From positions 5,818 through 69,817 of the IMG/VR virus record IMGVR_UViG_3300030060_003348: a DNA stretch of 64,000 nt; one strand, given 5' to 3'. Numbering within the stretch: the stretch's first letter is position 1; each line of letters begins with the position of its first letter. This document shows, piece by piece, positions 5,283 to 53,524 of this stretch. The notes under the pieces were generated by a model, which had not been told where the DNA came from, did no database searches, and was given only the letters and a program-made list of their open reading frames with translations. This stretch comes from a virus. A program made the translations under genes and the position numbers.

Positions 5283-5480
5283 CTAAGCTTTTTTACAACT
5301 ACCTTTAGCACAAGGTTTTGTACCAGGAACTCTTTTATAACCGTCCCAACAGTTACAGTCCTTTGCTTGTAAAGGAGAGTCTTCAATTGCTTGTTTTAAG
5401 TGCCCTGGTAGTTTGTGTTGTTTTCCGATAAGTTTTTTCATTAGTGGGCTTTTCCCCACCATTTTAAAAGGTTTGTACAT
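5283..5480 (-). CDS. Small basic protein with FKM leader and two SPL boxes
   Basis: MYKPFKMVGKSPLMK...DSPLQAKDCNCWDGY; start moved to ATG 5480. Confidence 0.7.
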   Translation of the reverse strand: MYKPFKMVGKSPLMKKLIGKQHKLPGHLKQAIEDSPLQAKDCNCWDGYKRVPGTKPCAKGSCKKA

Positions 5481-5817: not shown

Positions 5818-5823
5818 TTAATT

Positions 5824-7154: not shown

Positions 7155-7182
7155 TAAATCACTTGTAAATTTCAAATTTTAC
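7155..7182 (-). promoter_or_regulatory. Class B phage promoter GTAAA-N15-GTGATTTA
   Basis: Conserved spacing; ATG 14 nt after the first G of the downstream box. Confidence 0.7.
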
Positions 7183-20275: not shown

Positions 20276-23200
20276 CTAATCTGTTGTTATTGTTAAAAAG
20301 TTACCAGTTTTAATAGTTAAGTTACCACCAGTGCTACCAAACTTCGCTAAACTTATTTTACCTGTAAGATTAACTCTAGTATTAGATATTTTTGTTGCTG
20401 TTAAATCTGATATTACCTCAAAACCATTTCTAAATGTTAGTGTAGAACCTTGTGATAAGTTTGCTGTTGTTGCTTTGCTTAGTGTTATAGTTCTTGCGTT
20501 TACATTAGTTACAGTTGTACTAGGCGCAATACCATCACCGTGAACAGTCATACCAGTAGCTATACCATCAATATTTGCAAGATCCATTAATATTGTTGTA
20601 GAACCAGAGGTAGTATCTATAGAAATACCGTGAACATAATCACCACCTATAATATCTTGAATGTCTGGTTGTCTTGCTACAGTAAACGATTTACCAGAAG
20701 TACACTGTAACTCAAGGTGTATTTGTTGTCTTATAGCGTTTTTAGGTGTGCTGTTTCTTTTGCCTATAAAAGCATTACTAATAACGTTACTACCGGAGAA
20801 CATACTCATATCGGTTATCATAGTAGCTGTTATACTAGATGCAAGATTAGTTTGCGATGTTATATCGTAGGTACTACTAGCCGTTGGAAATGCTGCTGAT
20901 AAGCCCAAACCATCACCACCCAAATCAACGCCATACAAGTTGTATGTTAATAAGGTTGCAGAAGCGCTGGCATCTAGTGTTAAATCTATATCGGTATTAC
21001 CATTAACACATGCTATTGTATTAACAACGGGCGTTTCTGATGTAGCCCAAGTGCTTGTCCAAACTAAATCACCTTCTTGCGTAGAACTAGAAAGTGTACA
21101 GTAAGTGTGATTACCCTCGCCACTTGTCGGTTTTTTAATAACTAAACCAACGTTTCCAGCTGCAGAAGAAGATATGTTTAAAGTTACCGTATTGCCAGAT
21201 GTTAAGTGCTGTGGGCTAGCACTGAACAGATTTGCCAAAGTTGGTGGTATTGTTGTTAATATCTCTCTAGCTAAATAGTTTAATCTTACATCATGCAGGT
21301 GTGCACAAAAACCACCCTCACCAGCAGGTGGATCACCAGCTTCCCAACCAACACCCGTAGGTGGAGTATAAAATATTTTTACAACTGTTTGATATATTTT
21401 TGTTGTGTTACCAGATGATGTGTAATAAGTGTTGTCGTAACTAAAACTATAAGAACCAGTCCAAGCAGAGCTTGCTAAATGTGGAAACCAAGAGGCTTCA
21501 CAACCAGTTGTTGGACCACTACCTACCTCTGTTAAATAGTAGCCAGAATCAGCCGTTACAGTATATCTAGCTATTTCTGTAGTTTGACCCTCATTAGCCG
21601 AGCCAGAATGTTTTATAGTAGTCATTGGGTCTGGCAAGTAATTAACATCAGCTGTTTCTGTAAAATTAGCTAAATCTACATGTGCTATAGTAACTCTATC
21701 GTTACCACTAGTTACAGTGCCGCTAGGTATTTCAGAATAACTAACTCTCACACAAGCATCTCTAGCCACAACACCAGGAGGGTTTGAAGTAACTGAAGAA
21801 TCTACATCGCATTTTAAAACCTTATTACCAGCAGCCGGCATTGTATAGTTTTGCCAAAATATTTCACATTTAACCCTGTTTGCTGGGTCGTTAGGTATAC
21901 CAGGAGTTTCGTTAAAAGCAGCGTCTATAAACACATTAGAAAATTCAACTTTAATTATATCAGTATCCGCGTTCATGCTACCACCTTGTGTGTATATATA
22001 TTTTGTTGCGTTACCAGATCCAGATGTTGTAGCTGTACCACCAGGACAACTATAATCTTTAGCAGATAAACTAAGACCACTGTAGTTCTGCACCCAAGCA
22101 CTACCATTCCATTGATACTCATTTGTTATATAACTTGCATAAGAACCAGCTAAAACAGTAGCGCCACCCACAGCGGTCAGCGGCGTTTTAAATAACACTT
22201 TCCAATTTGGATTATCTGCAACGCCCGAATCCCAAGAATTATGATTAGGAGAAGCGTTTCCATTACCAGTATCATTTGTGTGAGTACCTTGTATATATAT
22301 TTTATAAGTCACTCCAGGAGGTGGACCAGTTACAGTAGAGTCATCAAAACCACCTAAACCTTGAACAGAAAACTCTCTTTCATCTAAGTTTGCAAGCTCT
22401 GTAGTTTTACCTTTAACAGTGCTAAAGTATTTACCTTCTTTATTTTTAAACTCTAACAAGCCTGTTTCTTGTAGATTTGTTGTTATGTCTTCAATATACC
22501 AACCAGTTTTATTCCAAAGGTTATAGTATTCAGAGTCATTTAAATTATTAAGAGCTTGGCTAGCAGCGTTCGTTGTGTTTACTTGAGTAAAAGAAGTTAC
22601 CGCCGCCGCGCTACCTTCGTAATTTATTGTTCCAAAACTTTTAACAGAACCAGGTTGATCGTTAAATAGTAACGTAACATCGGAATTGTACTGTGTTCCG
22701 TAGAAATTATTTCTAGTAGAATTAGTATGATGTTGCCATAAGTTTCCTTTATTCCATGTGTAAAACTCATTATTTAAACTAATACCTTGCTCAGGTAAAA
22801 AATCTTTAAAACTAACCCAACCTTTAGATTTTTGACTATATGAAAGTGTTACACCTGTTGGTCTAAATTGCTGTTGCGCTGCTTTTTTCAAAAGAGATAT
22901 ACTGTATTCTTTTTTCTTTTCATCAAACACTCCAACGACAGAGTCTAAGTCCTTCATGTTATCGTTAAAATAATCTTTCATTCCCATGTCGGATATAGAA
23001 ACTATTTGATCTCCTTTCAATGTTAACACATTGCCTCTCATAACATCAGCCCAGTAAAAACCATCTGGATCTGGAGTTAAAGACTCTGGGTTAGTTGATA
23101 TACCATATTCACCAGCAAGTGGAACAGCTTGGCCTAAAACATTATTGGTAGACGTTACGTTAGAATTACCATCAGCATTAAATAAAGCATCTTTGTTTGT

Positions 23201-26200
23201 TAGTATTTTTAAAACTTTATCTTCACAAAAAGCTAAAGTGTTTGTGTTTCTAGCAACCATTTTTTGTATAGTACCATAACCAGGATTTAAGTCTTTTGTT
23301 ATTGGCTCCGCTTGTATAAACTGATTAAGATTGTTTACGCCACTAGTTGAGTTAAATATACCTGACCATATAAAACCACTACTTCTATGCTCTTCAGCAT
23401 AAGGCTCAGATAAAGTCGTGGATGCTTTTACACCATTGTCTATTGTTTTAGCGTTAAAATCATCACGTATTCTATCTGATTCAACACCATTACCAAAAGA
23501 ATAGCAGTTAAACCAACCTAAAACAGTAGGGTTGTGATGAGGCGCCGCATCTGCTTTTGAAACAAAAGTACCTAAATTAATAGCATTATCACCAGTAGTA
23601 AAGTATATGTAAGGTTGACCAGACGCAGCGGCTGTACCACCTGGTTGGTTAGATATTAAGCAGACTCTAGAGCCGTCGTATCTAGTAAAGTAAGACCAGT
23701 GATCATGAGGAAAAGAAGTCGCTAAATTAGGGGAAAGCGTTATTTTACTAACGTGTTTATGTGGAGAATATGAGTTAACAGCCATAACCTTGTATTCAGT
23801 ACCCTGCCAAAACATAGTAGAGCCAAGAGGTAATAACAACTCGTTTTCACTGTGGTCAGGATTTATAGGTATAGCTCCAGAAGCTTCGTAATAAATATCT
23901 AGGCCTACATCTTCTTTTGGTTCTGTTTCCCATATAGCTGGATTATTAGTTAAAAAAGCACCTGCACCACCATCTTCACTTGAAAATATTTGAGGTTCTA
24001 AAAACTCTATTGTTATTCTAGCTGGGTGATTACCACCGCCGGGTTGTGGCCCTAAACCATAAGAGTGACCCGTGCCTAAAGCAGAGTAGTTAATAGGGTT
24101 GTAATGTGTATACGAAGTAAATGGACCACCACCAAACGAACTAGAATATCTAGGTGCCGCGACTAATTGATTAGCAGTGTTTAATTCCAAACCAGTATCA
24201 CTAGTTATAGGGTACCAGTTATGATAGTGACCAATAGGAGCTGTTATAGTTGTTCCAGCCGCATTTGTAACTCCATTTGCTGCAACAATAGCCCCATCAT
24301 ATCTATCACCATCTACTAACATAATTGGATCGCCATCTGGGTCTGGGTTAGGCTTGCTCATTGGAGCGTGTTCGTTTGAATCAAAAACGTGTAAAGGTCC
24401 ACTACCAAACATTTTGTCAACCTTAATTCTCATACTCCACCTGTGATTATCAAAATCATTTAGATTACTGTGCCAATTCCAATGCGGGTCGTCAGAACCG
24501 CCGATTAAACAACCACCACCACCATTGTTAACTTCACTTTCCCAATTACCACTACCATCTTTTCTTGTTCTTGTGAATAAATTAGCCCCCTCACCATCAA
24601 AAAGACTACTTCTTAACCTACCCTGAACACCATCAATTCTAAATACAACTTGTGCCGGATCCTCTTTAAATCTAAAAAGTGTACCTATTGTTCTAAGTCT
24701 ATTATAAGGAACTTGAAATCTATTACCCTGCTCATTAGGACTTCCGTCAAAGTTAGCATAAGACAAGTCTATATAGCCATGCCCATCAATACCAGAACTA
24801 ATACCACCATCATCAGCCTGTGCGTTTTGAGGGAAACTTGCTATAGCATTATATATACCACCTCTATTTATATGTTTTGAAGAAATAGAGTTACCACTAC
24901 CAGCTGGGCCACAATCTTGATCATCAATAAACCATCTAGACCTTGTTGATCTCTGATCACCATCATGCCAGTTTCTCCATTTAGTCCAATACGTTTCATT
25001 AGAACCATCGTGGTCTGACATATAACCAATGTTCATTATATCTGTAACAATATAATCTATTCTTTCTGAAAAAGAAGATAATAATTCTTTTTCCAGTGTT
25101 AAATCTTTTAATATTTTAACAAAAAACCTACCATCAAACTCCGGTTTATCTTCAAATTTATTTTCAAACACCTCTAACCTCATTTGAGTTGTTCTATTCA
25201 AAATAGATATTGGAGAACATTCATCTCCTAAAGGCTCTGAAAGTGTTATTCTAACTCCACCAGAATTATTAGCTATACCAGTAATATCGTAAACCTCACT
25301 AGTTAAAACCGTGCTAGCATCAACACCACCAATTCTTAATTGTAAGTTATCTTTTAAATCTGGCTCGACAACACCACCAAAGCTGTTTAAAAATTGCTGT
25401 TGGTCTAATATAATAAAAGTTCTTCCTTCTTCAGGTAAGCCAGTTGCTTCAAACTCAACAGTTGACATACCATAGGACTTTCTTTTTCTTTTAATAAATA
25501 AAGGCGCCTCGTTACTTATAGCAATAACCTTATATCTTGCAGACTCTGTAACAGGATTATTATTATCGTGTTGTTTTTTAAGTATTAAATAAGTTTCTTG
25601 ATCTACTTTATTTCTTTCCGCAGAAGGAAAACTAATCCAAACATTACCATCTTCAGCATCGTAAAAACGATCCATAGCTAGGTTGTAATATTCGTTAGAA
25701 GTTTCTTTAATATAATACTTCATGTATCTAGCCCACGGCGGCGGATCACCTCCTCCGTTAGATTTTTCTAATATTTTTACTTTTAATCTATTTTGTTTAA
25801 AAGAATCTTTTTTTGGAACAGTTATAGACCCACCTTCAGCAGGAACCATAACTGGACTTTCTCTACCATAATCATCTATCCAAACAACTCCAACCTGATA
25901 AGTTCTCATTGATTTTAAAGACTGTAAGGGTATTTCGTAGTCTTCTATAGAGCTATCTGGAATATTGTAAGCCGAGTGCTGAACGTTTAGTTTTAAAGAA
26001 TCATCTATGTTGTAATTCTGCTTGTAGTTACCATAAACCAACCTGTTAGCAGTTATTTCTTGAGCCTTAGCACATTTAGGAACATTGTCATAAGGTCTCA
26101 ACAATTGGTTAGAAGGAACGACAGCGTGTATCATTTCGCTATCTATTTGAAACTCACCTCTATTTCTCCAATTGCTTTTCATGTCAGGCCAAAGAGGATG

Positions 26201-27898
26201 TCCATCTTTTCTTGACAAAGTTTTCATCGTGTAAACAGTAGTAGACTGTGTTTCTTTGTATAGTAGGTCTATTTCTACAACGTCATCAGGAACTAAACTA
26301 TGTTCGTGAAAATAATTTTTAAGAGTTATGTATCTAACTCTATTTGTCATACCTAGGTTATAACCTTTTTTAGGTAAGTAATCAAAATCACCAGGTAAAA
26401 AGGCTATTTCAGAAAACGGCGCAAAAGCAGAGTATTCACCATCGGTATATCTGTATCTGTATGAAAACCTAGGAAACTTATACTCAAACAAAGGTTTTGT
26501 TTGTTCTAATCTGCTTAACCAGTTTGTCGCTGTTGTAGGCGCTTCAAAATCTATCGACTGTATTTCCGCTGTATAAGGTCCCGACGAAGCATTTGGGTTA
26601 GAGTTGTTAACTGGTCCACTTAGTATTTTTAATCTAGCCTCAACCTTATCTAAGGCAAAGTTATCTTGTGCTAAGGTTAAATCACTAGTTAACATTATAG
26701 TGTCACCAGCTCTATAATCAACAGGGGTTTGTAAATTAAAAGTTACTTGATCACCAACTTCTAAATGTTCTGGCGGACTAGCACCATCTCCAAGGTTTAA
26801 ACTTGTTGTTGTTGCAAAAACTGGATTTTCATCACCGTTAGTATCTTTTCTTTTATTTTCTGTTGTAGACATTTCTACTTCTAAAGGAAATAAAGGGTTT
26901 CTTTTTATAACAGTAATATCAGCTTCTTCTACAAAAACCGGTTTTTCCTCGTTAGAGTCCGTGGCAACTTTAAAAGCGTTAGACACAGACTCATGTTTTC
27001 TACATAATCTAGTATGATAATCATCATTGTTTTCACTTGCGGGCTGAGGGTTGTTTGTCGCGTTTGGCTGGTTATTCCAAAGGTTAGTGTCTATCCAGCC
27101 GTCTAAAGGGTCGTTTCCACATGTACCAGCAAAAGATCTTTCTATATTTATTTTTCTAGGCTCATGATAATTATCAGTCCAGAATATCATTCCATCTAAA
27201 TGATTTATAGCTGTTATTTTTCTATGATGAACAAACTTTAAAACTCTATTAGCAAAAAAAGTCATTGTATCTCCAGCTGTACAGTAAAAATTAGATCCGT
27301 TATTTAACAAGCCACTACTACCACTGTGGTATATTCTATAATTACTTCCTTGTTTTTTAATGTTAGTAACCGTAACACCCCAATTATTATTAATACCAAC
27401 TTGGTTTTGACCAGCTCCATTTGGATCGTTTAAAACACCTTTTAGTTCCATACCTATTCTTATACCTAAAGAATAATAAGTAGGAGCGGCTATTTCAATA
27501 AAATCAGAACTAGCTTGATCAGTAGCTATAGTATGTGTTACAGAATATATATCAACAAATATATAACGGGTTTCTTCTGTTATAGTATTGTATTCTATTA
27601 TATAATCTTTTTTTCTTAAGGGCTCATAATTTTTTGTACCACCACCAGCAATAAAATAATATATTAAATCTTTTTCGGGCAAAGGTAAAACACCTACGCA
27701 AGTAGAATAATCTTCGTTAACAACATTTGCAGTTTTATTAGTGTTTCCTAACAATGTTTGTAAAGAACCAACATTAGAACCATCAGATGTAGCTATTTGT
27801 ATATTTCTAGCGTCACGATACTGGCCGGAAGGTACAACCCTTTCGTCCATATCTTTGTTCATTTTCGCTTGTGAAAAATCTCTTTTTAATTCAGCCAT
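20276..27898 (-). CDS. Tail stabilisation/nozzle (muzzle, P22 gp10-like) protein, 2540 aa
   Basis: N-terminal MNKDMDER..QYRDARNI, FWTDNYHEPRKIN, GNGVESDRIRDDFN, GISTNPES and KEGKYF motifs; follows the adaptor genes. Confidence 0.75.
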   Translation of the reverse strand: MAELKRDFSQAKMNKDMDERVVPSGQYRDARNIQIATSDGSNVGSLQTLLGNTNKTANVVNEDYSTCVGVLPLPEKDLIYYFIAGGGTKNYEPLRKKDYIIEYNTITEETRYIFVDIYSVTHTIATDQASSDFIEIAAPTYYSLGIRIGMELKGVLNDPNGAGQNQVGINNNWGVTVTNIKKQGSNYRIYHSGSSGLLNNGSNFYCTAGDTMTFFANRVLKFVHHRKITAINHLDGMIFWTDNYHEPRKINIERSFAGTCGNDPLDGWIDTNLWNNQPNATNNPQPASENNDDYHTRLCRKHESVSNAFKVATDSNEEKPVFVEEADITVIKRNPLFPLEVEMSTTENKRKDTNGDENPVFATTTSLNLGDGASPPEHLEVGDQVTFNLQTPVDYRAGDTIMLTSDLTLAQDNFALDKVEARLKILSGPVNNSNPNASSGPYTAEIQSIDFEAPTTATNWLSRLEQTKPLFEYKFPRFSYRYRYTDGEYSAFAPFSEIAFLPGDFDYLPKKGYNLGMTNRVRYITLKNYFHEHSLVPDDVVEIDLLYKETQSTTVYTMKTLSRKDGHPLWPDMKSNWRNRGEFQIDSEMIHAVVPSNQLLRPYDNVPKCAKAQEITANRLVYGNYKQNYNIDDSLKLNVQHSAYNIPDSSIEDYEIPLQSLKSMRTYQVGVVWIDDYGRESPVMVPAEGGSITVPKKDSFKQNRLKVKILEKSNGGGDPPPWARYMKYYIKETSNEYYNLAMDRFYDAEDGNVWISFPSAERNKVDQETYLILKKQHDNNNPVTESARYKVIAISNEAPLFIKRKRKSYGMSTVEFEATGLPEEGRTFIILDQQQFLNSFGGVVEPDLKDNLQLRIGGVDASTVLTSEVYDITGIANNSGGVRITLSEPLGDECSPISILNRTTQMRLEVFENKFEDKPEFDGRFFVKILKDLTLEKELLSSFSERIDYIVTDIMNIGYMSDHDGSNETYWTKWRNWHDGDQRSTRSRWFIDDQDCGPAGSGNSISSKHINRGGIYNAIASFPQNAQADDGGISSGIDGHGYIDLSYANFDGSPNEQGNRFQVPYNRLRTIGTLFRFKEDPAQVVFRIDGVQGRLRSSLFDGEGANLFTRTRKDGSGNWESEVNNGGGGCLIGGSDDPHWNWHSNLNDFDNHRWSMRIKVDKMFGSGPLHVFDSNEHAPMSKPNPDPDGDPIMLVDGDRYDGAIVAANGVTNAAGTTITAPIGHYHNWYPITSDTGLELNTANQLVAAPRYSSSFGGGPFTSYTHYNPINYSALGTGHSYGLGPQPGGGNHPARITIEFLEPQIFSSEDGGAGAFLTNNPAIWETEPKEDVGLDIYYEASGAIPINPDHSENELLLPLGSTMFWQGTEYKVMAVNSYSPHKHVSKITLSPNLATSFPHDHWSYFTRYDGSRVCLISNQPGGTAAASGQPYIYFTTGDNAINLGTFVSKADAAPHHNPTVLGWFNCYSFGNGVESDRIRDDFNAKTIDNGVKASTTLSEPYAEEHRSSGFIWSGIFNSTSGVNNLNQFIQAEPITKDLNPGYGTIQKMVARNTNTLAFCEDKVLKILTNKDALFNADGNSNVTSTNNVLGQAVPLAGEYGISTNPESLTPDPDGFYWADVMRGNVLTLKGDQIVSISDMGMKDYFNDNMKDLDSVVGVFDEKKKEYSISLLKKAAQQQFRPTGVTLSYSQKSKGWVSFKDFLPEQGISLNNEFYTWNKGNLWQHHTNSTRNNFYGTQYNSDVTLLFNDQPGSVKSFGTINYEGSAAAVTSFTQVNTTNAASQALNNLNDSEYYNLWNKTGWYIEDITTNLQETGLLEFKNKEGKYFSTVKGKTTELANLDEREFSVQGLGGFDDSTVTGPPPGVTYKIYIQGTHTNDTGNGNASPNHNSWDSGVADNPNWKVLFKTPLTAVGGATVLAGSYASYITNEYQWNGSAWVQNYSGLSLSAKDYSCPGGTATTSGSGNATKYIYTQGGSMNADTDIIKVEFSNVFIDAAFNETPGIPNDPANRVKCEIFWQNYTMPAAGNKVLKCDVDSSVTSNPPGVVARDACVRVSYSEIPSGTVTSGNDRVTIAHVDLANFTETADVNYLPDPMTTIKHSGSANEGQTTEIARYTVTADSGYYLTEVGSGPTTGCEASWFPHLASSAWTGSYSFSYDNTYYTSSGNTTKIYQTVVKIFYTPPTGVGWEAGDPPAGEGGFCAHLHDVRLNYLAREILTTIPPTLANLFSASPQHLTSGNTVTLNISSSAAGNVGLVIKKPTSGEGNHTYCTLSSSTQEGDLVWTSTWATSETPVVNTIACVNGNTDIDLTLDASASATLLTYNLYGVDLGGDGLGLSAAFPTASSTYDITSQTNLASSITATMITDMSMFSGSNVISNAFIGKRNSTPKNAIRQQIHLELQCTSGKSFTVARQPDIQDIIGGDYVHGISIDTTSGSTTILMDLANIDGIATGMTVHGDGIAPSTTVTNVNARTITLSKATTANLSQGSTLTFRNGFEVISDLTATKISNTRVNLTGKISLAKFGSTGGNLTIKTGNFLTITTD

Positions 27899-46173: not shown

Positions 46174-46560
46174 TTACTTTTTTACTTTCTCTAAACTTCT
46201 TCCACCAAAATACGCACCAATTACAGTTATTAAAACTAACTGCAATAAATCAGTCCATTTATTTTCTACTTTAAAATTAATAGCACCAGCGTCAATAAAT
46301 ATTAATAAAACTGTTGCTACTACTAAAAATACCAAAACTAATGGACGTATATTTTTACTCAGCCATGAATCTGACTGCATGTCCATTTTCCATCGCTCAG
46401 TTACTTGCTTTTGCATCTCAGCTTCGTAACCCATTATCATGTCTTTTATTTTTTGTTCAGCTGCTAACTTTTCTTCAGCAGAAGTATGGAGGTTATCTAT
46501 AACACCTCCAACTCCTTTTATAAGTTCAGTTGCACCTCCTGAAAATATTTTACTTAGCAT
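46174..46560 (-). CDS. Holin of the 3TM (GTA-type) family
   Basis: SDSWLSKNIRPL, two TM segments, YFGGRSLEK. Confidence 0.75.
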   Translation of the reverse strand: MLSKIFSGGATELIKGVGGVIDNLHTSAEEKLAAEQKIKDMIMGYEAEMQKQVTERWKMDMQSDSWLSKNIRPLVLVFLVVATVLLIFIDAGAINFKVENKWTDLLQLVLITVIGAYFGGRSLEKVKK

Positions 46561-46561
46561 A

Positions 46562-46951
46562 TTATTTTTTCTTTTTCTTGTTCTTAGATGGTCTTATTTT
46601 CTTTTTATCAAAGTCGTAACCAGTGCCTAAATCTCCTTCTTCAAAATCAGTTTCATCTAGATGATCACCTTTTTTATATTCCTTACCACTCCAGTGTTGA
46701 GCACCACGAGGTAAATAAGTAGTGTCCATAACTGAGTTATTAATAAAGCTTCCGTCTTCACGGCCAGTAACAAACAACCCTTTGTCATTCTCTTGAACTT
46801 TAGACACGTCTTCTATTATATAATCTTTAGCGTTTACATTTTGAGATCTTCCTTCTGAATCTTTAGGGTTAAAATTTCTTTCTCTTTTCTTTTTTTGTAA
46901 CAATGGAGTTCCTTCTCCAAAGTTTTTGATACCTTTCATTTTATATGCCAT
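46562..46951 (-). CDS. Basic protein with MAYKMKG leader
   Basis: MAYKMKG...GTPLLQKK. Confidence 0.75.
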   Translation of the reverse strand: MAYKMKGIKNFGEGTPLLQKKKRERNFNPKDSEGRSQNVNAKDYIIEDVSKVQENDKGLFVTGREDGSFINNSVMDTTYLPRGAQHWSGKEYKKGDHLDETDFEEGDLGTGYDFDKKKIRPSKNKKKKK

Positions 46952-46960
46952 AATATTTTT

Positions 46961-47308
46961 TTATGCGTTATATGCTCTTTTTTCCCATGGAAACTCCTTG
47001 CTACCTTCTTCTATCCATTTTCCATTATACTTTATTTTACCATCTTTTCTTTTGTAAGTATTACCATTATACCTAATGTAATCATCACCATAAGCAAGTT
47101 TACCACTTTTCATATCATCAATATGCTTTTTTTCGTGATTAACCACTTCTTTTTCTAATGGACTACCTGGTTTTATTTTATTGCTAATATTAATGCTACC
47201 ATCGTTATTAGCTTCACCCATAACACCAGGATCTAGTTTCTTTCTAAATATAGGAGCTGATTTAGAATTTTTAATACCTCTACTTTCTGAACCTAATTTA
47301 AAACCCAT
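46961..47308 (-). CDS. Mini zincin-like metallopeptidase with MGFKL leader
   Basis: VNHEKKH (HExxH) and downstream PWEKRAY. Confidence 0.6.
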   Translation of the reverse strand: MGFKLGSESRGIKNSKSAPIFRKKLDPGVMGEANNDGSINISNKIKPGSPLEKEVVNHEKKHIDDMKSGKLAYGDDYIRYNGNTYKRKDGKIKYNGKWIEEGSKEFPWEKRAYNA

Positions 47309-47796
47309 TACTTTTTCTTTACATATTTTTTAGCTTCTCTGTAAGCTTTTCTTTCTTGCTTATCTTTTTCATAATCTGCATCAGAAGCGTCAAAAGTAGT
47401 TCCGCTAGGTCCTTTTTTAGTTTCTAAGGCTAGCTTTTCTTTTTTAGCAATCATTTCTTTACTTTCAGCTGGTCCTATTTTTTCACTAGTTCCTTTTTTC
47501 TTTTTCTTTCCACCTGGAATCCCTAAACTAATAGCGTCTCCTTTTTTTCTAGGTTTTTTATTCCCCATGCCCCACTCAAAAGCTTCATCTTCACCAGTAT
47601 ATTTAGAATAAGCACCTGGACCTCTATATGTTCCCATTGGTACTGGCTCGTAATCTTTACTAGCAGCTGTTTCATAAAAAGCCTTTTCTTCAGGTGTTCT
47701 CATATATTGTGGCATCAATTGTTTAACAGGTGAGCCATCAGCGTGACACTTTACTGTTTTTCCGTAAAAAGATGATCCTTTCATTTTATATCCCAT
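47308..47796 (-). CDS. Basic protein with MGYKMKG leader
   Basis: MGYKMKGSSFYG...GSPVKQ. Confidence 0.75.
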   Translation of the reverse strand: MGYKMKGSSFYGKTVKCHADGSPVKQLMPQYMRTPEEKAFYETAASKDYEPVPMGTYRGPGAYSKYTGEDEAFEWGMGNKKPRKKGDAISLGIPGGKKKKKGTSEKIGPAESKEMIAKKEKLALETKKGPSGTTFDASDADYEKDKQERKAYREAKKYVKKK

Positions 47797-47797
47797 A

Positions 47798-48238
47798 TTA
47801 TCTGTCTTTGTCTTTTATCATATCATTTATAGCTTTATTATAAACTTTATCTGTATATGATTGGTTATTAAAAAATTTGCTTCTCTCTGATGTTGGTAAA
47901 TCCTCTTCACCTAACAATATTCTATACATTCTACTTATGAGTTGAGAGCACTTAAAAGAAGTTTTAAATACTGAGTATTTTATGGTAGTTCGGTTTCGGT
48001 GTCGCCAAACTTCTATCCAATCATTTCTTCTAAGCTTCTCCCATCTGTTCTTATCCCAACTCATTGTGTACACTCCGTTTATAAAGTCTTGTCGGGTAAA
48101 TCTTCCTTTACAATCGAGGTATACTAATAATTCTAGATCAGCGTCGGTTATGTTGTAAGTTTTACAAGCCCATTTTCTTACTAATCTATAATATTTAAAG
48201 AGATTCATTTCTCTTATATCTTGTGCTGTTATTCTCAT
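47798..48238 (-). CDS. Possible winged-helix DNA-binding protein
   Basis: MarR-like start ITDADLELLVYLDCKGRFTRQDF. Confidence 0.45.
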   Translation of the reverse strand: MRITAQDIREMNLFKYYRLVRKWACKTYNITDADLELLVYLDCKGRFTRQDFINGVYTMSWDKNRWEKLRRNDWIEVWRHRNRTTIKYSVFKTSFKCSQLISRMYRILLGEEDLPTSERSKFFNNQSYTDKVYNKAINDMIKDKDR

Positions 48239-48492
48239 TCTACTATAACAACATCTTGATCTTTTATAACTTGATATAGCTTATTGCCACAATCTATACT
48301 TTCACCTCTATGCTTGTCATAATATACAATATCGTCTTGTTTTAATGCTTGTACAAAATTTCCAACTGATATTATTTTACCTTTTATAAATCTATTATCT
48401 ACATCTAAATCTTCTGTATATAATAAGCCGTTAACTTTTTTATGTTTAGACTCTAATTTTTCAACTAATATGTAATGTCCTATTGCTTTCAT
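48235..48492 (-). CDS. groES: Co-chaperonin GroES-like protein
   Basis: MKAIGHYILVE...GKIISVG...DIVYY...DVVIV; overlaps the groEL stop. Confidence 0.8.
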   Translation of the reverse strand: MKAIGHYILVEKLESKHKKVNGLLYTEDLDVDNRFIKGKIISVGNFVQALKQDDIVYYDKHRGESIDCGNKLYQVIKDQDVVIVE

Positions 48493-50051
48493 ATTTCCCT
48501 AGCGTTTGAAATTACACAATCAGCAGATATAATAGTTGAAACTACACTTACAGCATTTTTTAAAGCTGCTTTAGTTACAAGCACCGGATCTATAATACCT
48601 CGCTCTACCATATCCACACCGTTACCTGTTACAACATCTATACCATAACCTTTTTCTAACGGTAAATCTTTATACTCTATACCTGCGTTATCTAATATAG
48701 TGTAAAAAGGTGCTTTAATAGCTTTCAACAGTATTTCTTCACCTAGTGTTTTATATTTTATTTTTTGAGCTGCATTAAGAAGAGCAACACCACCGCCTGG
48801 TACAATACCTTCTTTTAAAGCTGCTTTTGTTGCGTATATAGCGTCTTCAACTCTATCTTTCTTTTCTTTTAACTCAACTTTAGAATCAGCACCCACTTTG
48901 ACGATTCCAACACGACCGGATAACATAGACAATCTTTGTTCCAGCTTCTTTTTAATGAAACCATTTTTTTCCTTGGTAATAAGCTTTGACACGAGGTCAA
49001 TCCTTTCTTGCAAGTCTTCTTGTATATCATCTATAGTAGTTATTACGGTGTTTAGTTGATCTGTTACAGAAAACTCAGCTTCTCCTAAGTGTTGATCGGT
49101 AATCATATCTAAATCATCACCAAGCTCTTCATCTATTACTGTAGCACCTGTTAATATTGCTAAATCTTCAGTTGTATCTTTTTTAGTAGGACCAAAGCCT
49201 GGTAAGTCAATTATATTAACTTTTATATTACCTTTAGCTTTGTTCATCATTAAAGCCGTTTTAACTTGCTGTGAAACCGGAGCAACTATTAACAAAGATC
49301 TATTCTTTTTTATAACATGCTCTAAAACGCCTTGAATTTTTCTTATGTTGGGTATTTCACTAGAAACTATTAATACTAAAGGATTTTCTAACTCTGCTTT
49401 GTTTTTCTCTTTATCTGTAACAAAATGGTTAGAGGTTAATCCACATTCTATTTGAACACCGTCAACTAACTCAACGTAAGTTTTGTCTGTTTCAGAAGAT
49501 TCCATTAAAACAACTCCGTTTTTACCAACAGTCTCATAAGCCTCTGCTATAATCTTTCCTAGTTCTTCATCATTATTACAACTAATTGAACTAACAGATT
49601 TCAACATATCGCCTTCGATCTTGACAGCAGACTTATTTAAATGTTTATTGATATTTAACAAACAGGTGTTTATACCTTGTTTTATTTCTCTTATGGAGGT
49701 TTCTTTATTTATAGAATTATAAACCTCGTTTAAAAGTGATTGAGCAAGGACAGTAGCTGTTGTAGTACCGTCACCTGCTTCGTTCACTGTGTTTTTAGCA
49801 GCTTCTTTTATTAGGGTTGCACCTAAGTTTTCAACCGGGTCATATAAGACTACGCTCTGCGCAACGGTTACACCATCTTTTGTAATCACCGGGTTACCCC
49901 TGGAATCTTCATATATTACGCATTTTCCAGACGCCCCAAGGGTAGATTTCACTGCTTTAGCTAGTTTATCAACACCAGCTCTAATTTTATTATTAGCTTC
50001 ATCACCAAAGTTAAGTTCTTTGACAATTTCGCTAGGCAAATTGTATTCCAT
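48489..50051 (-). CDS. groEL: Chaperonin GroEL
   Basis: ITKDGVTVA, AGDGTTTATVLA, GIVPGGGVAL and GIIDPVLVTK; no GGM tail. Confidence 0.95.
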   Translation of the reverse strand: MEYNLPSEIVKELNFGDEANNKIRAGVDKLAKAVKSTLGASGKCVIYEDSRGNPVITKDGVTVAQSVVLYDPVENLGATLIKEAAKNTVNEAGDGTTTATVLAQSLLNEVYNSINKETSIREIKQGINTCLLNINKHLNKSAVKIEGDMLKSVSSISCNNDEELGKIIAEAYETVGKNGVVLMESSETDKTYVELVDGVQIECGLTSNHFVTDKEKNKAELENPLVLIVSSEIPNIRKIQGVLEHVIKKNRSLLIVAPVSQQVKTALMMNKAKGNIKVNIIDLPGFGPTKKDTTEDLAILTGATVIDEELGDDLDMITDQHLGEAEFSVTDQLNTVITTIDDIQEDLQERIDLVSKLITKEKNGFIKKKLEQRLSMLSGRVGIVKVGADSKVELKEKKDRVEDAIYATKAALKEGIVPGGGVALLNAAQKIKYKTLGEEILLKAIKAPFYTILDNAGIEYKDLPLEKGYGIDVVTGNGVDMVERGIIDPVLVTKAALKNAVSVVSTIISADCVISNAREI

Positions 50052-50085
50052 ATTATATTTAATTTAATTTAATTTAACTTTGTGT

Positions 50086-50379
50086 TTAAAAGGTTTTTAC
50101 AACCTTTGGACCACTTGCCGCCTCTATTTTTTTAGAGAAATGGTCGATGCTGCCATCGATAGCAGCTTCTGCACCATCTATGGTCTCTCTTCGTGTTACG
50201 TCAACCCAATTATCTTCTGAGTCTAATTGTAAACATTCAGTTTGGTAAAATCCATTAGGCAGCTGAGTTATTCTCCAGTTACTTTTAGTAGCTAAGTGTT
50301 CCCACTGCTCAATAGTTTCTTTACTCGGTTTTTGGTTGCCAGTAGTTAATGTACTGGTCTTGTAGTATAAATAAGTCAT
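50086..50379 (-). CDS. Hypothetical protein
   Basis: 97-aa ORF upstream of groEL. Confidence 0.7.
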   Translation of the reverse strand: MTYLYYKTSTLTTGNQKPSKETIEQWEHLATKSNWRITQLPNGFYQTECLQLDSEDNWVDVTRRETIDGAEAAIDGSIDHFSKKIEAASGPKVVKTF

Positions 50380-50432
50380 TTTGGTTTATTTTTTGGTTAA
50401 TATTGACTTGGTCTAGGGTCTTTCCCTATATT

Positions 50433-50624
50433 TTAATATTCTTTAGATTTATCTTTCATTAATAATCCGGTTTTACTAGCTATAGCTCCTATTGGGTTTA
50501 ATGCACCAAGAGCTCCTTTACCTTTAGCTAGATCTCCAAAAAATCCTTTAAATGGACTTTTTCCGCTACCGTATTTTTTCATTTTCATGTTAAATTTTGA
50601 TGTTGCTTTTCCTTTTGCTGGCAT
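50433..50624 (-). CDS. Small basic protein with SPFK box
   Basis: SKFNMKMKKYGSGKSPFKG. Confidence 0.65.
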   Translation of the reverse strand: MPAKGKATSKFNMKMKKYGSGKSPFKGFFGDLAKGKGALGALNPIGAIASKTGLLMKDKSKEY

Positions 50625-50626
50625 AA

Positions 50627-51079
50627 TTATTTCTTTTTAGTTGTTTTTTTCTTTGGCTCGTAACCATCTATTTTCATCATTTTTTCTTTCTCAGTCATTT
50701 TAGCAATATCTTCTTTGCTATAATCAGCGCCTGGATAAGCTGGCACAAAATCTTCTTGTGAAACTTTTTTAGACTTTTTGTCAGCTGCAGATCCTTTCTT
50801 AACTTTTACTGTTGTTTTTTTAGGAGGTACTGGTTTTTTATTTTCTTTAGGTCTACCAGTAACAGCGCCATCTTTAATCATCATATCAGCATCTTTTTGG
50901 GTAAAGCCCTCTGCTAATAACTCTTCTTTAGTTTTATCTCCTGTTTTTACTTGGAATGGAGATGACGTGGCTCTGCCGTCAGCTTTACCAGCATAGTCTT
51001 TATTATTTTTTATTGCTCCTTTAGCTCCAAAACCACCCATACCTTTGTATAGTGATGGACCTTTCATTTTAAATGCCAT
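50627..51079 (-). CDS. Basic protein with MAFKMKG leader
   Basis: MAFKMKGPSLYKG...SSPFQVK. Confidence 0.75.
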   Translation of the reverse strand: MAFKMKGPSLYKGMGGFGAKGAIKNNKDYAGKADGRATSSPFQVKTGDKTKEELLAEGFTQKDADMMIKDGAVTGRPKENKKPVPPKKTTVKVKKGSAADKKSKKVSQEDFVPAYPGADYSKEDIAKMTEKEKMMKIDGYEPKKKTTKKK

Positions 51080-51090
51080 AGTTTCTAGTT

Positions 51091-51381
51091 TTATTTTTTA
51101 CAATATTTTCTTTTTATAGGTGTTTCTAAAACCTCTTTGTCATTAGGAAAATTATATTCTTTTCCAGGTTCCATTATTTTAGTTTTTCCTGTTGTTAATC
51201 CCTCTCCTTTAATTTTACCTTTTTCCAAAGGTTTACCGTCTTCTTCTTTCATACTAATTTTAGTACCATTTTCATCACCAGGTATAATTTTATGATCTGA
51301 TGGTGTGTGTCCTTTTCTATAACCATGAGTTGTTCTCATTAAGTTTTTGTACAAAGAAGGTCCTTTCATTTTGTATGCCAT
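51091..51381 (-). CDS. Basic protein with MAYKMKG leader
   Basis: MAYKMKGPSLYKN; has its own class B promoter. Confidence 0.75.
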   Translation of the reverse strand: MAYKMKGPSLYKNLMRTTHGYRKGHTPSDHKIIPGDENGTKISMKEEDGKPLEKGKIKGEGLTTGKTKIMEPGKEYNFPNDKEVLETPIKRKYCKK

Positions 51382-51387
51382 ACTCTT

Positions 51388-51415
51388 ATTATTACGTATT
51401 ACGCTATATTTTTAC
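51388..51415 (-). promoter_or_regulatory. Class B phage promoter GTAAA-N15-GTAATAAT
   Basis: Conserved spacing; ATG 14 nt after the box start. Confidence 0.7.
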
Positions 51416-52484
51416 TCGGATTAGATTTAACTTTTGTATTCTTATTTTTCTTTGGTTTTCTCGCAGTTACAGTTTTTGTAGAATCGTATACTACATTTTT
51501 CTTTGTTTTGTTTTTCTTTTTGTTTTCCGCAATTTTGTTAGTTACAACTTTATCTGTCTTCTTAAGTATTTCCTTAGATCCTTTGTTAACTGCTTTTTTA
51601 ACAACTTTCTTTCCTACCTCGTTAGCTAATTGCTTACCACCTTGCTTTACAACTTCTTTACCTGCTTTGTAAGCTAGTTTTGTACCAGCAACTCCTTGAC
51701 CAACAACAGGAACCATCATAGCTGCATTAACACCAGCATTGATCATGTGTTCTTTGGCTCCTTCTTCGTCACCTGTCCATTTGGAATAACCAGCTCTACC
51801 TAAAGAAGTAGCCGTGTTTATTCCATCAGCGATTATACCGAACCCAGGAACGGTTCCAGCTGCGGTTAAAGCGGTTTGACCGTAGTCAAGAGCTTTTTTC
51901 CAGTCAAAATGTAAGGGTGAATCGCTATAATTTAGCGGAGTATGTCCATAACCCTTCTTTTTTAACTCTAAATGCTTTTTATATGTATTAGCTTTTATAG
52001 CGCTTTTACCTTTATACATCATGTGTGGCTCAAATTTCTTTTTAGATAGTAAAGGTGGCTTTTTTTCTAATTTTGTACCTTGTTTTTTCAGCTCTGTTTG
52101 TTCTTTTGTTAAAACAGTAGGTCTTTTCGACGCTTTGTTATTTTTTCTTGCTTTTTGTGTTTTTGCTATACGTCCACTAGCATCGGGATCGTTAGTGGTT
52201 TTAGTTGGACCATCACCAACTGGGTTTTCATAAGCGTTATACTTGGCTTTTGTCACAGTTTTTCCACCTATCTTGTACCAATATGGCTCAATTTTTTGCT
52301 CTAAAGGGGTTTTTTTATTTTTTTTAGTCTTAGGAACAGGTTTTCCTTGTTTTTTCCAGATTTCTTGCCCTTTTTTGTCTAAATCTTCATACCTAACAAC
52401 GTCTTCTTTTTGTTTTTTTAAGAACTCGATGTCTTTTGAGGTGTAACCTGCTGGATATGTTTTTTGTTTTAATGCGCTTTTCAT
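51399..52484 (-). CDS. Modular basic protein with repeated (S/T)PL boxes and a pre-toxin-TG-like segment
   Basis: SALKQ, TPLEQ, PPLLS, TPLNY and SPLHF boxes; TALTAAGTVPGFGIIADGIN. Confidence 0.7.
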   Translation of the reverse strand: MKSALKQKTYPAGYTSKDIEFLKKQKEDVVRYEDLDKKGQEIWKKQGKPVPKTKKNKKTPLEQKIEPYWYKIGGKTVTKAKYNAYENPVGDGPTKTTNDPDASGRIAKTQKARKNNKASKRPTVLTKEQTELKKQGTKLEKKPPLLSKKKFEPHMMYKGKSAIKANTYKKHLELKKKGYGHTPLNYSDSPLHFDWKKALDYGQTALTAAGTVPGFGIIADGINTATSLGRAGYSKWTGDEEGAKEHMINAGVNAAMMVPVVGQGVAGTKLAYKAGKEVVKQGGKQLANEVGKKVVKKAVNKGSKEILKKTDKVVTNKIAENKKKNKTKKNVVYDSTKTVTARKPKKNKNTKVKSNPSKNIA

Positions 52485-52485
52485 G

Positions 52486-53058
52486 TTACCTTAATTTATT
52501 ATATCCTCCGGTTACTAAATTCTTCACTCTTCTAGACTTTGGACGTTTTGTAAATACTTTTTTTACTTTATTTTTAGTAGTTTTTATAGCGTCACTAACT
52601 TTTTTCTTAGTTCTTCTAACAGATCTCTTTATTTTATTCTTAGGTTTGTTTTTTTCTTCTGTACGCTTCTTTATTTCTTCCTTTTTCTTTTTAACCTCTT
52701 CTCTTTTCTTAACTTCAGCTAAAGCATCTTCATCTAAACTTACCTCAGGAGCTGTATACTCCGGCATTTTAACCTTTTTTAGCTTTCTAGGTAATCGTTT
52801 TCCTCCTCTTATCTTTTTAACCTTCTTCATCTTCATTTTTTTAGGCTGATATGTCTCACCAACCTTTTCACCGTCAGCGTACCTAGTTGTTATAGTAGCT
52901 CCGTCTGCTCTTTTAACAACAACGTTCTGTATTTTTTTACCAGTATCAGGATCAGTACCTACATTTTTAATAGGTTTAACTCTAGATATACCATCGCTGT
53001 TCTGTATTTTTCTGTCCTTACGCCTTTTTTGATATAAAGCTGTTTTAGTTTTAGCCAT
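52486..53058 (-). CDS. Very Lys/Arg-rich protein
   Basis: MAKTKTALYQK; start refined. Confidence 0.7.
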   Translation of the reverse strand: MAKTKTALYQKRRKDRKIQNSDGISRVKPIKNVGTDPDTGKKIQNVVVKRADGATITTRYADGEKVGETYQPKKMKMKKVKKIRGGKRLPRKLKKVKMPEYTAPEVSLDEDALAEVKKREEVKKKKEEIKKRTEEKNKPKNKIKRSVRRTKKKVSDAIKTTKNKVKKVFTKRPKSRRVKNLVTGGYNKLR

Positions 53059-53059
53059 G

Positions 53060-53524
53060 TTATTTTTTATTTTCTTTGTATTTACCTCTTTTGTGAAATT
53101 TATCAGCTTTATCATTTGCTGCGTCTTGCATTTTCTTTCTTTCTTCTGGAGTTGCGTTGTCGTACTTTTTCTTTTTAGCGTCTACCTTTTTTTGAAAGTC
53201 AGATTTTTTAGCGTTTGGGTTTGTCCATGTATCACCTTTCTTTAAACCATGTACTTTATTTTTAGACCCGTCTTTCATTACTTTTTTATTACTACCAGAA
53301 CCTACGCCAGCTTCGTCTTCTTTCTTTTCTTGCTCGTTTGCTTTCTTATTTCGTAAATATTCTTCGTAAAGTCTTTTGTCAGTCTCATACTCAGCTGCAG
53401 CATCGTTCATTTGACCATGTGCAGTAGTTGTAGATTTTTTAGGTTTAGGTACAACCTCTTGTTTTTTCTTTTGTTTGAATGGAGAAGATCCATAGAATGA
53501 GGATCCTTTTAGTTTGAAAGCCAT
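53060..53524 (-). CDS. Basic protein with MAFKLKG leader, first gene of the late arm
   Basis: MAFKLKGSSFYGSSPFKQKK; start refined. Confidence 0.75.
   Translation of the reverse strand: MAFKLKGSSFYGSSPFKQKKKQEVVPKPKKSTTTAHGQMNDAAAEYETDKRLYEEYLRNKKANEQEKKEDEAGVGSGSNKKVMKDGSKNKVHGLKKGDTWTNPNAKKSDFQKKVDAKKKKYDNATPEERKKMQDAANDKADKFHKRGKYKENKK

What the first reader, a model, noticed from the sequence alone, without database searches (positions are those of the whole stretch)
46562..53524. Family of unrelated basic proteins sharing an N-terminal leader and SPL box: candidate capsid-targeting and processing system
Seen: leaders MAYKMKG (46951), MGFKLG (47308), MGYKMKGSSFYG (47796), MAFKMKGPSLYK (51079), MAYKMKGPSLYK (51381) and MAFKLKGSSFYG (53524), with variants SKFNMK (50624) and PFKMVG (5480). 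Most are followed by TPLLQ, SPVKQ, SPFQ, SPFKQ, SPFK or SPLMK. Leaderless members begin with the box alone: SALKQ (52484), TALYQ (53058) and TPLKQ (18670, an ejection-module protein). Sequences diverge completely after the box. The two GPSLYK leaders differ at synonymous sites (ggt/gga, cca/cct, tca/tct, cta/ttg), so selection is on the peptide and not on DNA or RNA. Known: T4 internal proteins use a short N-terminal capsid-targeting sequence removed by the head protease. Inference: a portable tag loads a variable set of DNA-condensing or effector proteins into the head, and the box marks cleavage.
Basis: partly seen in the sequence, partly recalled or inferred. Interest (0 to 1): 0.88.

Follow-up and report, generated by a model that had tools for sequence, protein, structure and literature searches.

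The report
Shared N-terminal tag on phage proteins
A group of uncultured marine phages puts the same seven-residue start (MAFKMKG) on many otherwise unrelated, mostly basic late proteins and on a tiny zinc protease, which looks like an address label for loading cargo into the virus particle, though this is not yet shown.

Summary

The tag is widespread:
151 of them open an ORF of 40 codons or more, giving 146 distinct proteins.
- With the first 12 residues masked, 157 proteins (these 146 plus 11 from the window) fall into 73 similarity clusters, 57 of them singletons.
- By my reading, 118 of the 120 loci belong to the window's own phage lineage, a roughly 60-70 kb GroEL-encoding podovirus group with Bacteroidota-type start contexts.
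- Synonymous sites vary freely and the upstream DNA is not conserved, so selection acts on the peptide.
- In cellular genomes the same pattern sits inside genes (3 of 120 at possible starts).

A second N-terminal box, [ST][PA]-hydrophobic-[KQ..]-[KQ], is enriched about 30-fold over shuffled sequences.

One tagged protein is a single-copy, lineage-wide 100-120 aa HExxH zincin. It was present in 6 of 6 complete genomes, with 4,317 protein clusters found in metagenomes. Six related phages outside the lineage have neither the zincin nor the tag.

Best reading, at about 0.45 confidence: this is a T4-CTS-like virion-targeting tag on variable cargo, possibly trimmed by the zincin. Neither packaging nor cleavage has been tested. 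My literature searches found no description of it.

The parts
53060..53524 (-). Tagged protein, 154 aa, MAFKLKGSSFYGSSPFKQ...; pI 9.8, K+R 27%
52486..53058 (-). Leaderless basic protein, 190 aa from MAKTKTALYQ...; pI 10.6, K+R 35%. The box region resembles, by eye, leader-bearing MAYKMKGFPMMKGTALYQ proteins (L002, L086, L094).
51399..52484 (-). Leaderless basic protein, 361 aa, MKSALKQ...; its N-terminal region resembles, by eye, that of a leader-bearing protein in L016 (MAFKMKGPSLLKMVSALKQ...).
51091..51381 (-). Tagged protein, 96 aa, MAYKMKGPSLYK...; no box
50627..51079 (-). Tagged protein, 150 aa, MAFKMKGPSLYK...DGRATSSPFQ...; shares an EGFT..DA..M.KDGAVTG module with other leader proteins. 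The Atlas model has mean pLDDT 0.50.
50433..50624 (-). 63-aa basic protein with a degenerate internal leader (SKFNMKMKK) and the box SPFKG
   Evidence: a relative in G002 carries MAFNMKPGRSPFQQ after an upstream extension
47308..47796 (-). Tagged protein, 162 aa, MGYKMKGSSFYG...DGSPVKQ
46961..47308 (-). Tagged mini-zincin, 115 aa, MGFKLG...SAPIFRKK...HEKKH...PWEKRAY; single-copy core gene of the lineage
46562..46951 (-). Tagged protein, 129 aa, MAYKMKGIKNFGEGTPLLQKKK
5283..5480 (-). Distal variant, 65 aa, MYKPFKMVGKSPLMKK..., with a CW.GYKRVPG Cys module; resembles by eye a canonical leader protein in L006
48235..50051 (-). Context: phage GroES (48235-48492) and GroEL (48489-50051), lying between the two groups of tagged genes
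46174..46560 (-). Context: holin (phrog_3427), directly downstream of the tagged genes

Best explanation
The heptapeptide M-[AG]-[FY]-K-[ML]-[KG]-G is a portable N-terminal sorting tag. It is usually followed, 3-12 residues later, by an S/T-P/A-hydrophobic-K/x-Q/K box. One lineage of uncultured marine Bacteroidota podoviruses uses it. The tag marks a variable set of late-expressed, mostly basic proteins for incorporation into the procapsid or virion as internal or ejected cargo, much as the T4 capsid targeting sequence does for the T-even internal proteins. At least one of these proteins is modelled as disordered. The co-tagged mini-zincin is packaged by the same route and may trim the tag near the box.

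Shown: the tag exists, is portable, is selected at the peptide level, is specific to the late strand, is restricted to one lineage, and is linked to the zincin.

Inferred: virion targeting, cleavage, and the zincin as the processing enzyme.
For: - Six exact ORF-start copies lie in the window.
151 open ORFs of at least 40 codons, giving 146 distinct proteins.
- With the first 12 residues masked, 157 proteins fall into 73 clusters, 57 of them singletons.
- Gly7 uses all four codons (0.40/0.21/0.21/0.19), and the upstream DNA of the window's six genes is unrelated.
- 139 of 139 leader ORFs lie on the strand of the structural genes.
- In three complete genomes, 15 of 16 flagged leader ORFs are on the late strand. 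They sit either at the start of the late operon or after the giant proteins.
- The same DNA pattern in cellular genomes falls at a possible ORF start in 3 of 120 cases.
- The box occurs within 35 residues of the start in 43 of 146 proteins, against a shuffled mean of 1.27 and a maximum of 5 in 200 shuffles.
- The window's tagged proteins have pI 9.4-10.6 and GRAVY -0.5 to -1.7. The one with a stored model has mean pLDDT 0.50.
- The zincin has an invariant HExxH and a downstream WE. It is present once in 5 of 5 complete relatives plus the window genome. Of its 120 best homologues, 117 begin with the leader.
- Zincin and leader are both absent from six related phages: phi38:1, MW202828.1, elemoF, phi18:3, Gundel and Calle_2.
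- The related phage phi38:1 has small basic proteins annotated 'structural protein' at the syntenic place.
- The T-even internal proteins are described as a diverse set sharing only a conserved CTS (PMC3012670, passages read).
Against: - There is no virion proteome, N-terminal sequence or structure for any member, so packaging and cleavage are pure inference.
- W52484 and W53058 lack the leader, and relatives carry proteins that start with the box alone. The leader is therefore dispensable for at least some members.
- The small basic 'structural' proteins of phi38:1 have no leader.
- The two clusters of tagged genes abut the holin and the endolysin, which also fits a role in lysis.
- 16% of the 146 leader proteins have pI below 7.
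- A conserved 62-aa ORF on the early strand starts MGYKMKT in G003 and L115.
- No prohead-protease family was recognised among the 20 late products scanned. From recall, no zinc metalloprotease is known as a head-maturation protease.
- In both AlphaFold models of the zincin, its own leader has pLDDT below 50, so it is not modelled as docked.
- The co-occurrence of leader and zincin is a single phylogenetic event, not repeated independent evidence.
Confidence: 0.45

Rival explanations
1. The tag marks substrates, or regulated partners, of the mini-zincin inside the infected cell. Examples would be timed activation or turnover of DNA-binding or host-directed proteins. No packaging into virions is involved.
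For: - The zincin and the leader co-occur strictly: 6 of 6 complete lineage genomes against 0 of 6 related outsiders.
- The zincin's nearest structural and sequence neighbours include the site-specific regulators' proteases PprI/IrrE and ImmA-like M78.
- The tagged bodies are Lys-rich and low in complexity, which suits nucleic-acid binding.
Against: - The zincin carries the tag itself. That is easier to explain by shared targeting than by a substrate relation.
- The genes sit in the structural operon.
- Its own leader is not modelled in the cleft.
Confidence: 0.17
2. The tagged proteins are DNA-condensing or DNA-coating proteins that act on phage or host DNA in the cell. In this reading, leader and box are an oligomerisation or DNA-contact motif, not a sorting signal.
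For: - pI is 9.4-10.6 and K+R is 21-35% in the window's members.
- The box loosely recalls SPKK-type motifs (recalled, not tested).
- Modules such as DUF6321, CW.GYKRV and WPSAYASG recur in Lys-rich proteins of cyanophages and pelagiphages.
Against: - A DNA-contact motif has no reason to sit strictly at residue 1.
- The third box position is hydrophobic, not basic.
- 16% of the members are acidic or neutral.
- The zincin carries the tag too.
Confidence: 0.13
3. The tagged proteins are cationic lysis accessories, for example outer-membrane disruptors, and the leader is a membrane or envelope targeting element.
For: The proximal cluster ends at the holin. The distal cluster lies among signal-peptide or lipoprotein genes and the endolysin. 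The proteins are cationic.
Against: - Six to nine hypervariable copies per genome, of 45-431 aa, are far more than lysis needs.
- The leader has no hydrophobic core.
- A zincin and DUF6321-type modules carry the same tag.
Confidence: 0.07
4. The leader is an expression element acting through the nascent peptide or the first codons. It would boost translation initiation in hosts that lack Shine-Dalgarno pairing, and would have no role in the mature protein.
For: - The upstream context is the Bacteroidota A-rich type: A at -3 in 79%, and A at -11 to -13 in 76-81%.
- Codon 2 prefers GCA (0.67 against 0.28 in gene bodies), and AAA is slightly enriched at codons 4 and 6.
Against: - F3, M/L5 and G7 are conserved as residues while their codons vary.
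- Highly expressed structural genes such as the MCP and the portal lack the leader.
- A second peptide box follows.
Confidence: 0.08

Closest known systems
T4 capsid targeting sequence (CTS) of the T-even internal proteins (IPI, IPII, IPIII)
   Same: A short conserved N-terminal peptide is the only thing shared by a diverse, fast-evolving set of small proteins encoded in variable loci of one phage lineage (PMC3012670, passages read).
   Different: - No sequence relation is claimed or was tested.
- The host phylum (Bacteroidota) and the morphotype (podovirus-like, about 60-70 kb) differ.
- Here the signature is bipartite (leader plus box).
- No T4 gp21-like prohead protease was recognised. A tagged HExxH zincin is present instead.
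- Packaging and cleavage are unproven here.
Minimal zincins: selecase, projannalysin and proabylysin (minigluzincins), and the PprI/IrrE/ImmA M78 group
   Same: - Size is about 100-120 aa, with an invariant HExxH on a long helix after a three-stranded sheet.
- These proteins are the top Foldseek and PDB-profile neighbours.
- There are weak Pfam hits to DUF6782 and M78.
   Different: - Every match is below significance (E at least 0.1).
- The C-terminal half is beta-hairpins plus a WE.EAY helix, not the helical lower subdomain.
- It is phage-encoded, carries the MAFKMKG-type leader, and sits in a structural operon.
Propeptide-bearing head and ejection proteins of giant phages (phiKZ, SPN3US) and the P1 Dar system
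   Same: Many head-internal proteins are loaded into the procapsid and processed (abstracts seen in the search listing: PMC5694885, PMC7411985, PMC9024508).
   Different: Those systems use a serine-type prohead protease and cleavage motifs ending in Glu (recalled). They do not use a common seven-residue N-terminal start.
Small basic 'structural proteins' of Cellulophaga phage phi38:1 (gp069, gp080)
   Same: - They sit at the syntenic place, upstream of the lysis, tail and terminase genes, in a related phage (37% portal identity).
- They are Lys- and Arg-rich.
- gp080 has homologues in 4 loci of the leader lineage.
   Different: They have no MAFKMKG leader. The 'structural' label is the GenBank note only; I did not see the proteomics.

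Membership tests
T4-type capsid targeting sequence / internal proteins | A short N-terminal peptide shared by otherwise unrelated proteins of one phage lineage | tested here: met
   146 distinct leader proteins. Pooled with 11 window proteins, they form 73 clusters after masking 12 residues.
T4-type capsid targeting sequence / internal proteins | The proteins are present inside the prohead or virion | not testable with these tools
   No member of the lineage was found among 50,697 cultured phage records. No proteome is available.
T4-type capsid targeting sequence / internal proteins | The tag is removed by a prohead protease at a defined site | not testable with these tools
   The box is enriched, but no mature N-termini are known.
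T4-type capsid targeting sequence / internal proteins | A gp21-like or other known prohead protease is encoded by the phage | tested here: not met
   PHROG scans of 20 late products gave no protease family apart from the endolysin/peptidase hit of p152. Not every ORF was scanned.
Zincin metallopeptidases (minigluzincin / M78-like) | Invariant HExxH on the active-site helix | tested here: met
   H58, E59 and H62 are invariant in 20 sequences, and H56, E57 and H60 in 128 sequences. The motif lies in helix 50-68 or 47-66 of the models.
Zincin metallopeptidases (minigluzincin / M78-like) | A third zinc ligand downstream (Glu in gluzincins) | tested here: inconclusive
   An invariant W-E in P-W-E-x-E-A-Y lies about 40-50 residues after HExxH.
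Zincin metallopeptidases (minigluzincin / M78-like) | Zincin fold (mixed sheet plus active-site helix) recognised by structure search | tested here: inconclusive
   The top Foldseek rows are almost all zincins (PprI, selecase, abylysin, adamalysins, Wss1) over about 50-55 residues. The best E-values are 0.24 and 0.14.
Zincin metallopeptidases (minigluzincin / M78-like) | Match to a curated family model above its cut-off | tested here: not met
   Pfam DUF6782 matched 6 of 20 members (best E 0.0013), M78 matched 4 of 20 and M76 matched 1 of 20, all weak. The window copy matched none of these families.
Sec, Tat or lipoprotein signal peptides | A hydrophobic core of about 10-15 residues after a basic N-region | tested here: not met
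   Residues 8-30 are dominated by P, S, G, K and T. True signal peptides in the same genome look different, for example MKKILILLLLPLSILA.
SPKK-type DNA-binding motif | S/T-P-basic-basic, usually repeated (definition recalled) | tested here: not met
   The third box position is L, A, I, M or F in 42 of 43 boxes. The box is typically single and near the N-terminus.

The most novel reading that the evidence does not exclude
This would be a zinc-metalloprotease-based cargo system in tailed phages. A seven-residue leader plus a box would load a hypervariable arsenal of basic effector or DNA-coating proteins, likely disordered, into the head, together with a co-tagged 100-aa zincin. The zincin would then trim them at the box before or during ejection. 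That would make a head-maturation or cargo-processing protease of a catalytic class not known for this job, in a phage group that is abundant in ocean metagenomes.
Probability: 0.2. Interest if true: 0.85.

Novelty: new variant of a known kind. Interest (0 to 1): 0.72.

Why it matters
If the tag is a packaging signal, it would matter in three ways.
- It would be a second, independent case of the T4 'conserved address, variable cargo' design, found in an uncultured podovirus lineage of marine Bacteroidota. The lineage's marker zincin alone forms 4,317 protein clusters in public metagenomes.
- It would flag hundreds of unknown small proteins as likely injected cargo, where anti-defence and host-takeover functions are usually found.
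- It would give a seven-residue handle for loading foreign proteins into such capsids.

The tagged mini-zincin would then be a candidate for a new class of virion-associated protease.

Even if the packaging idea is wrong, the tag is a clean, testable short linear motif whose partner is unknown.

Tried and rejected
- **Family scans of the window's tagged proteins.** PHROG and Pfam scans of nine tagged or leaderless proteins (plus p146) gave nothing significant for the nine.
- **tblastn against cultured phages.** The tagged protein 50627-51079 gave no match even at E 10. The window zincin gave only a chance-level Lactobacillus hit. A canonical zincin (L038) gave weak hits (E 2e-4 to 6e-3) in jumbo phages, one of them annotated as an ImmA/IrrE metallopeptidase.
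- **Repeated promoter or RBS cassette.** Rejected, because the upstream DNA of the six genes is unrelated.
- **Mimicry of a host N-terminus** (as staphylococcal phages mimic L27; recalled). Not supported. The genome-contig scan gave 120 rows with 3 possible ORF starts, none resembling the family. Most matches lay inside a conserved roughly 340-400-codon frame of Burkholderiales.
- **Complex prediction.** Zincin residues 14-115 (alignment A1) plus Zn plus residues 1-40 of the 53524 protein gave no verdict. The score was 0.02 and controls were not run. This is evidence neither for nor against binding.
- **Protein atlas search** with the 51079 protein returned only unnamed viral clusters below 0.9.
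- **PHROG scan of ten of the largest leader proteins**, to find the single member that hits phrog_36695 'virion structural protein', gave no hits. That member remains unidentified.
- **Marine phage proteomics paper** PMC12014285 (passages searched) concerns alphaproteobacterial phages and does not bear on this finding.
- **Literature searches.** The strings MAFKMKG, AFKMKG, FKMKG and MAYKMKG gave 0 papers. A keyword search on flavobacterial phage, conserved N-terminal, virion and propeptide gave nothing relevant.

Full report
**Where the window lies.** The window is 64 kb of a 69.8-kb virus record with about 34% G+C.
- The minus strand from about 53.6 kb down to about 2.1 kb is one long late block. 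It holds small basic genes, GroEL and GroES, a holin, tail fibres, terminase, portal, MCP-like and 'virion structural' proteins, two giant ORFs of 2,540 and 3,404 aa, and an endolysin.
- The plus strand beyond 54.1 kb carries small genes and replication genes.
- Terminase and portal relate the phage to MW202828.1 (64% and 53% identity), to Flavobacterium elemo phages (46% and 43%), and to Cellulophaga Pervagoviridae and Pachyviridae, Tenacibaculum and Maribacter phages.

- Six minus-strand ORFs begin M-[AG]-[FY]-K-[ML]-[KG]-G, at 46951, 47308, 47796, 51079, 51381 and 53524.
- In a six-frame scan of the whole window, the core [FY]K[ML][KG] occurs 13 times. Six of these are the ORF starts above. 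The rest are internal or lie in tiny frames.
- The synonymous differences between the two GPSLYK leaders are as stated.
- The 70 bases upstream of each gene are simply the unrelated 3' ends of the preceding genes. So this is not a repeated promoter or RBS cassette.

**How far the tag extends.**
- 151 of the matches open an ORF of at least 40 codons, giving 146 distinct proteins. In all but 11 of the 154, by my reading of the table, no in-frame ATG lies between the previous stop and the motif.
- With a relaxed N-terminal rule, 215 of 1,779 greedily chosen ORFs in these loci carry the leader.
There, 3 of 120 matches lay at possible ORF starts. Most were internal to one conserved frame in Burkholderiales.

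**The tag is portable and selected as a peptide.**
- Residues 8-11 are also biased ([FSPM][PS][MFYL][FYK]), and conservation then collapses.
- After masking the first 12 residues, 157 proteins (146 plus 11 from the window) fall into 73 blastp clusters, 57 of them singletons. The largest cluster (33 members) is held together by short modules and low-complexity matches.
- Gly7 uses GGT, GGA, GGC and GGG at 0.40, 0.21, 0.21 and 0.19. Phe, Tyr and Lys codons follow body usage. Only Ala2 is skewed, to GCA.
- The upstream logo shows A at -3 and an A-run at -11 to -13 with no Shine-Dalgarno sequence. From recall, this is the Bacteroidota type of start context.

**One lineage, late strand only.**
- 113 of 120 loci encode at least one homologue of 27 late proteins of the window. 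Terminase identity reaches 86%.
- Of the other seven loci, L064, L074 and L115 carry a roughly 620-aa ORF whose N-terminus closely resembles that of the window genome's 623-aa ORF. L039 and L075 carry the zincin.
- That leaves L017, an 11-codon frame, and L043, from a 120-kb contig, where a 50-aa leader ORF directly follows an 845-aa ORF.
- All 139 leader ORFs in loci that have late markers lie on the markers' strand.
- In the complete genomes G000, G002 and G003 the leader genes form a proximal group, by GroEL and the zincin at the head of the late block, and a distal group after the giant protein.
- One counter-example exists: a conserved 62-aa early-strand ORF starting MGYKMKT in G003 and L115.

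**The second box.**
- [ST][PA][AILMVFP][KQYLHFM][KQ] occurs within the first 35 residues of 43 of 146 leader proteins. After shuffling residues 8 to the end, the mean was 1.27 and the maximum 5 in 200 shuffles. The box peaks at residues 11-15.
The figure therefore overstates independence.
- In ORFs without the leader, the box is still commoner at residues 1-20 (25 of 1,564) than at residues 41-60 (6 of 1,350).
- Some relatives start directly with it (MSSPFQK, MPSPIK, MSFNKKNTPFKQ).
- The window's leaderless W52484 and W53058 have N-terminal box regions that, by eye, match leader-bearing proteins in L016 and L002.

**The mini-zincin.**
- The 115-aa product of 46961-47308 belongs to a family with invariant H-E-x-x-H and a downstream W-E.
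- A body-only HMM finds it in 81 of 120 loci and in G000, but not in MW202828.1 or phi38:1.
- Five of five complete relatives have exactly one copy.
- The big protein database holds 4,317 clusters at E of 0.001 or better. All 120 listed are unnamed or 'hypothetical protein' and carry no Pfam domain. They come from JGI, ENA, Tara and NCBI, and their longest contigs reach about 64 kb.
- 117 of the 120 best start M-[AGS]-F-x-[ML]. The other three have that start after a 35-47 residue extension, which in L059 begins MSSPIK and ends TSPLK.
- The AlphaFold models have pLDDT 79.6 and 82.4. They give three strands, a long HExxH helix, hairpins and a final helix. The leader stays below pLDDT 50.
- The Foldseek top rows are almost all zincins (PprI/IrrE, selecase, abylysin, adamalysins, Wss1), but with E of at least 0.14.
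- The best PDB profile hit is selecase MJ1213 at E 0.1. Pfam hits to DUF6782 and M78 are weak.
- I therefore call it a zincin-like metallopeptidase candidate, not a member of any curated family.

**Co-absence in relatives.**
- phi38:1 has no leader.
- A relaxed DNA pattern found two matches in elemoF, phi18:3, Gundel, Calle_2 and MW202828.1, both internal to annotated genes.
- No zincin was found in any of the 87 related cultured records.
- Leader and zincin thus appear and disappear together. This is one phylogenetic event, not repeated independent evidence.

**What the bodies are.**
- The window's members have pI 9.4-10.6, K+R 21-35% and GRAVY -0.5 to -1.7.
- The stored Atlas model of one of them has mean pLDDT 0.50.
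- Across the 146 proteins the median length is 120 aa and the median pI is 9.7, but 16% have pI below 7.
- Five carry DUF6321 and one carries DUF5872.
- DUF6321 also ends a Lys-rich 455-aa protein of the T4-like cyanophage Syn33, which in addition holds CWKGYKRV and WPSAYASG modules seen here.
- One member hits a PHROG labelled 'virion structural protein', but I could not identify which member.

**Interpretation.**
- The anatomy is a conserved address on variable late proteins in variable loci of one lineage, plus a co-tagged protease candidate. It is closest to the T-even CTS and internal-protein system (PMC3012670).
- I rate virion targeting at about 0.45, and the stronger version, in which the zincin trims the cargo, at about 0.2.
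- The rivals are a zincin substrate tag without packaging, intracellular DNA-coating proteins, lysis accessories, and an expression element. None is excluded. The evidence for and against each is given in its own section.
- Nothing I could run tests packaging or cleavage. The single complex prediction gave no verdict.

**Novelty.** No paper in the searchable library holds the leader strings, and a keyword search found nothing relevant. Supplements were closed. I file this as a new variant of a known kind.

Noticed in passing
window 47798-48238 (-): A 146-aa protein sits between GroES and the tagged genes. It is 86-95% identical in the eight best of the 68 loci with a match, related to phi38:1 gp078 and to phrog_17028, with a weak DUF7943 hit. 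It may be a conserved regulator of the late block.
   Followed up: partly
window 7179-17393 and 20276-27898 (-): Two giant ORFs of 3,404 and 2,540 aa lie in a 70-kb podovirus-like genome, and relatives have homologues. They are presumably internal, ejected or tail proteins. Their function was not examined.
   Followed up: no
window 48235-50051 (-): A phage-encoded GroES/GroEL pair is embedded among the tagged genes and is conserved in about 50 of 120 related loci.
   Followed up: partly
L059 2262-2729 (+) and proteins P0004, P0011, P0033: In one sub-lineage the zincin frame is open upstream, giving MSSPIK...(about 45 aa)...TSPLK-MGFKMKG-zincin. That is a box-first extension ending in a box directly before an internal leader. 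It is either a polyprotein-like fusion or an over-long gene call.
   Followed up: partly
L059 2732-3784 (+): The 350-aa ORF next to the zincin starts MALKKNFFKGLQGGVNHSPLKM and contains a second HExxH (DHEIGH).
   Followed up: no
G003:C1:12104-12292 (-) and L115 8524-8712 (-): A conserved 62-aa early-strand ORF starts MGYKMKT. It is leader-like but sits outside the late block. No homologue was found in the window genome.
   Followed up: partly
L043 3373-3525 (+), from a 120-kb IMG/VR contig: A 50-aa MAFKMKG ORF directly follows an 845-aa ORF and precedes 257-aa and 450-aa ORFs, in a locus with no homologue of the window's late proteins. It is either a second lineage that uses the tag or a chance match.
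   Followed up: no
L258 (Prochlorococcus phage Syn33, Syn33_105): A Lys-rich 455-aa protein of a T4-like cyanophage strings together the WPSAYASG, CWKGYKRV and DUF6321 modules, which occur singly behind the leader in this lineage. The DUF6321 query matched 486 cultured marine phage records.
   Followed up: partly
window 2143-2601 (-) and 5491-7148 (-): An endolysin (phrog_894) and several signal-peptide, lipoprotein and transmembrane ORFs surround the distal tagged genes. The holin lies 40 kb away, next to the proximal tagged genes.
   Followed up: partly
L108, L005, L061, L077: These loci hold homologues of the phi38:1 'structural protein' gp080 within the leader lineage. They start M..QKL[ST].. 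rather than with the leader.
   Followed up: partly
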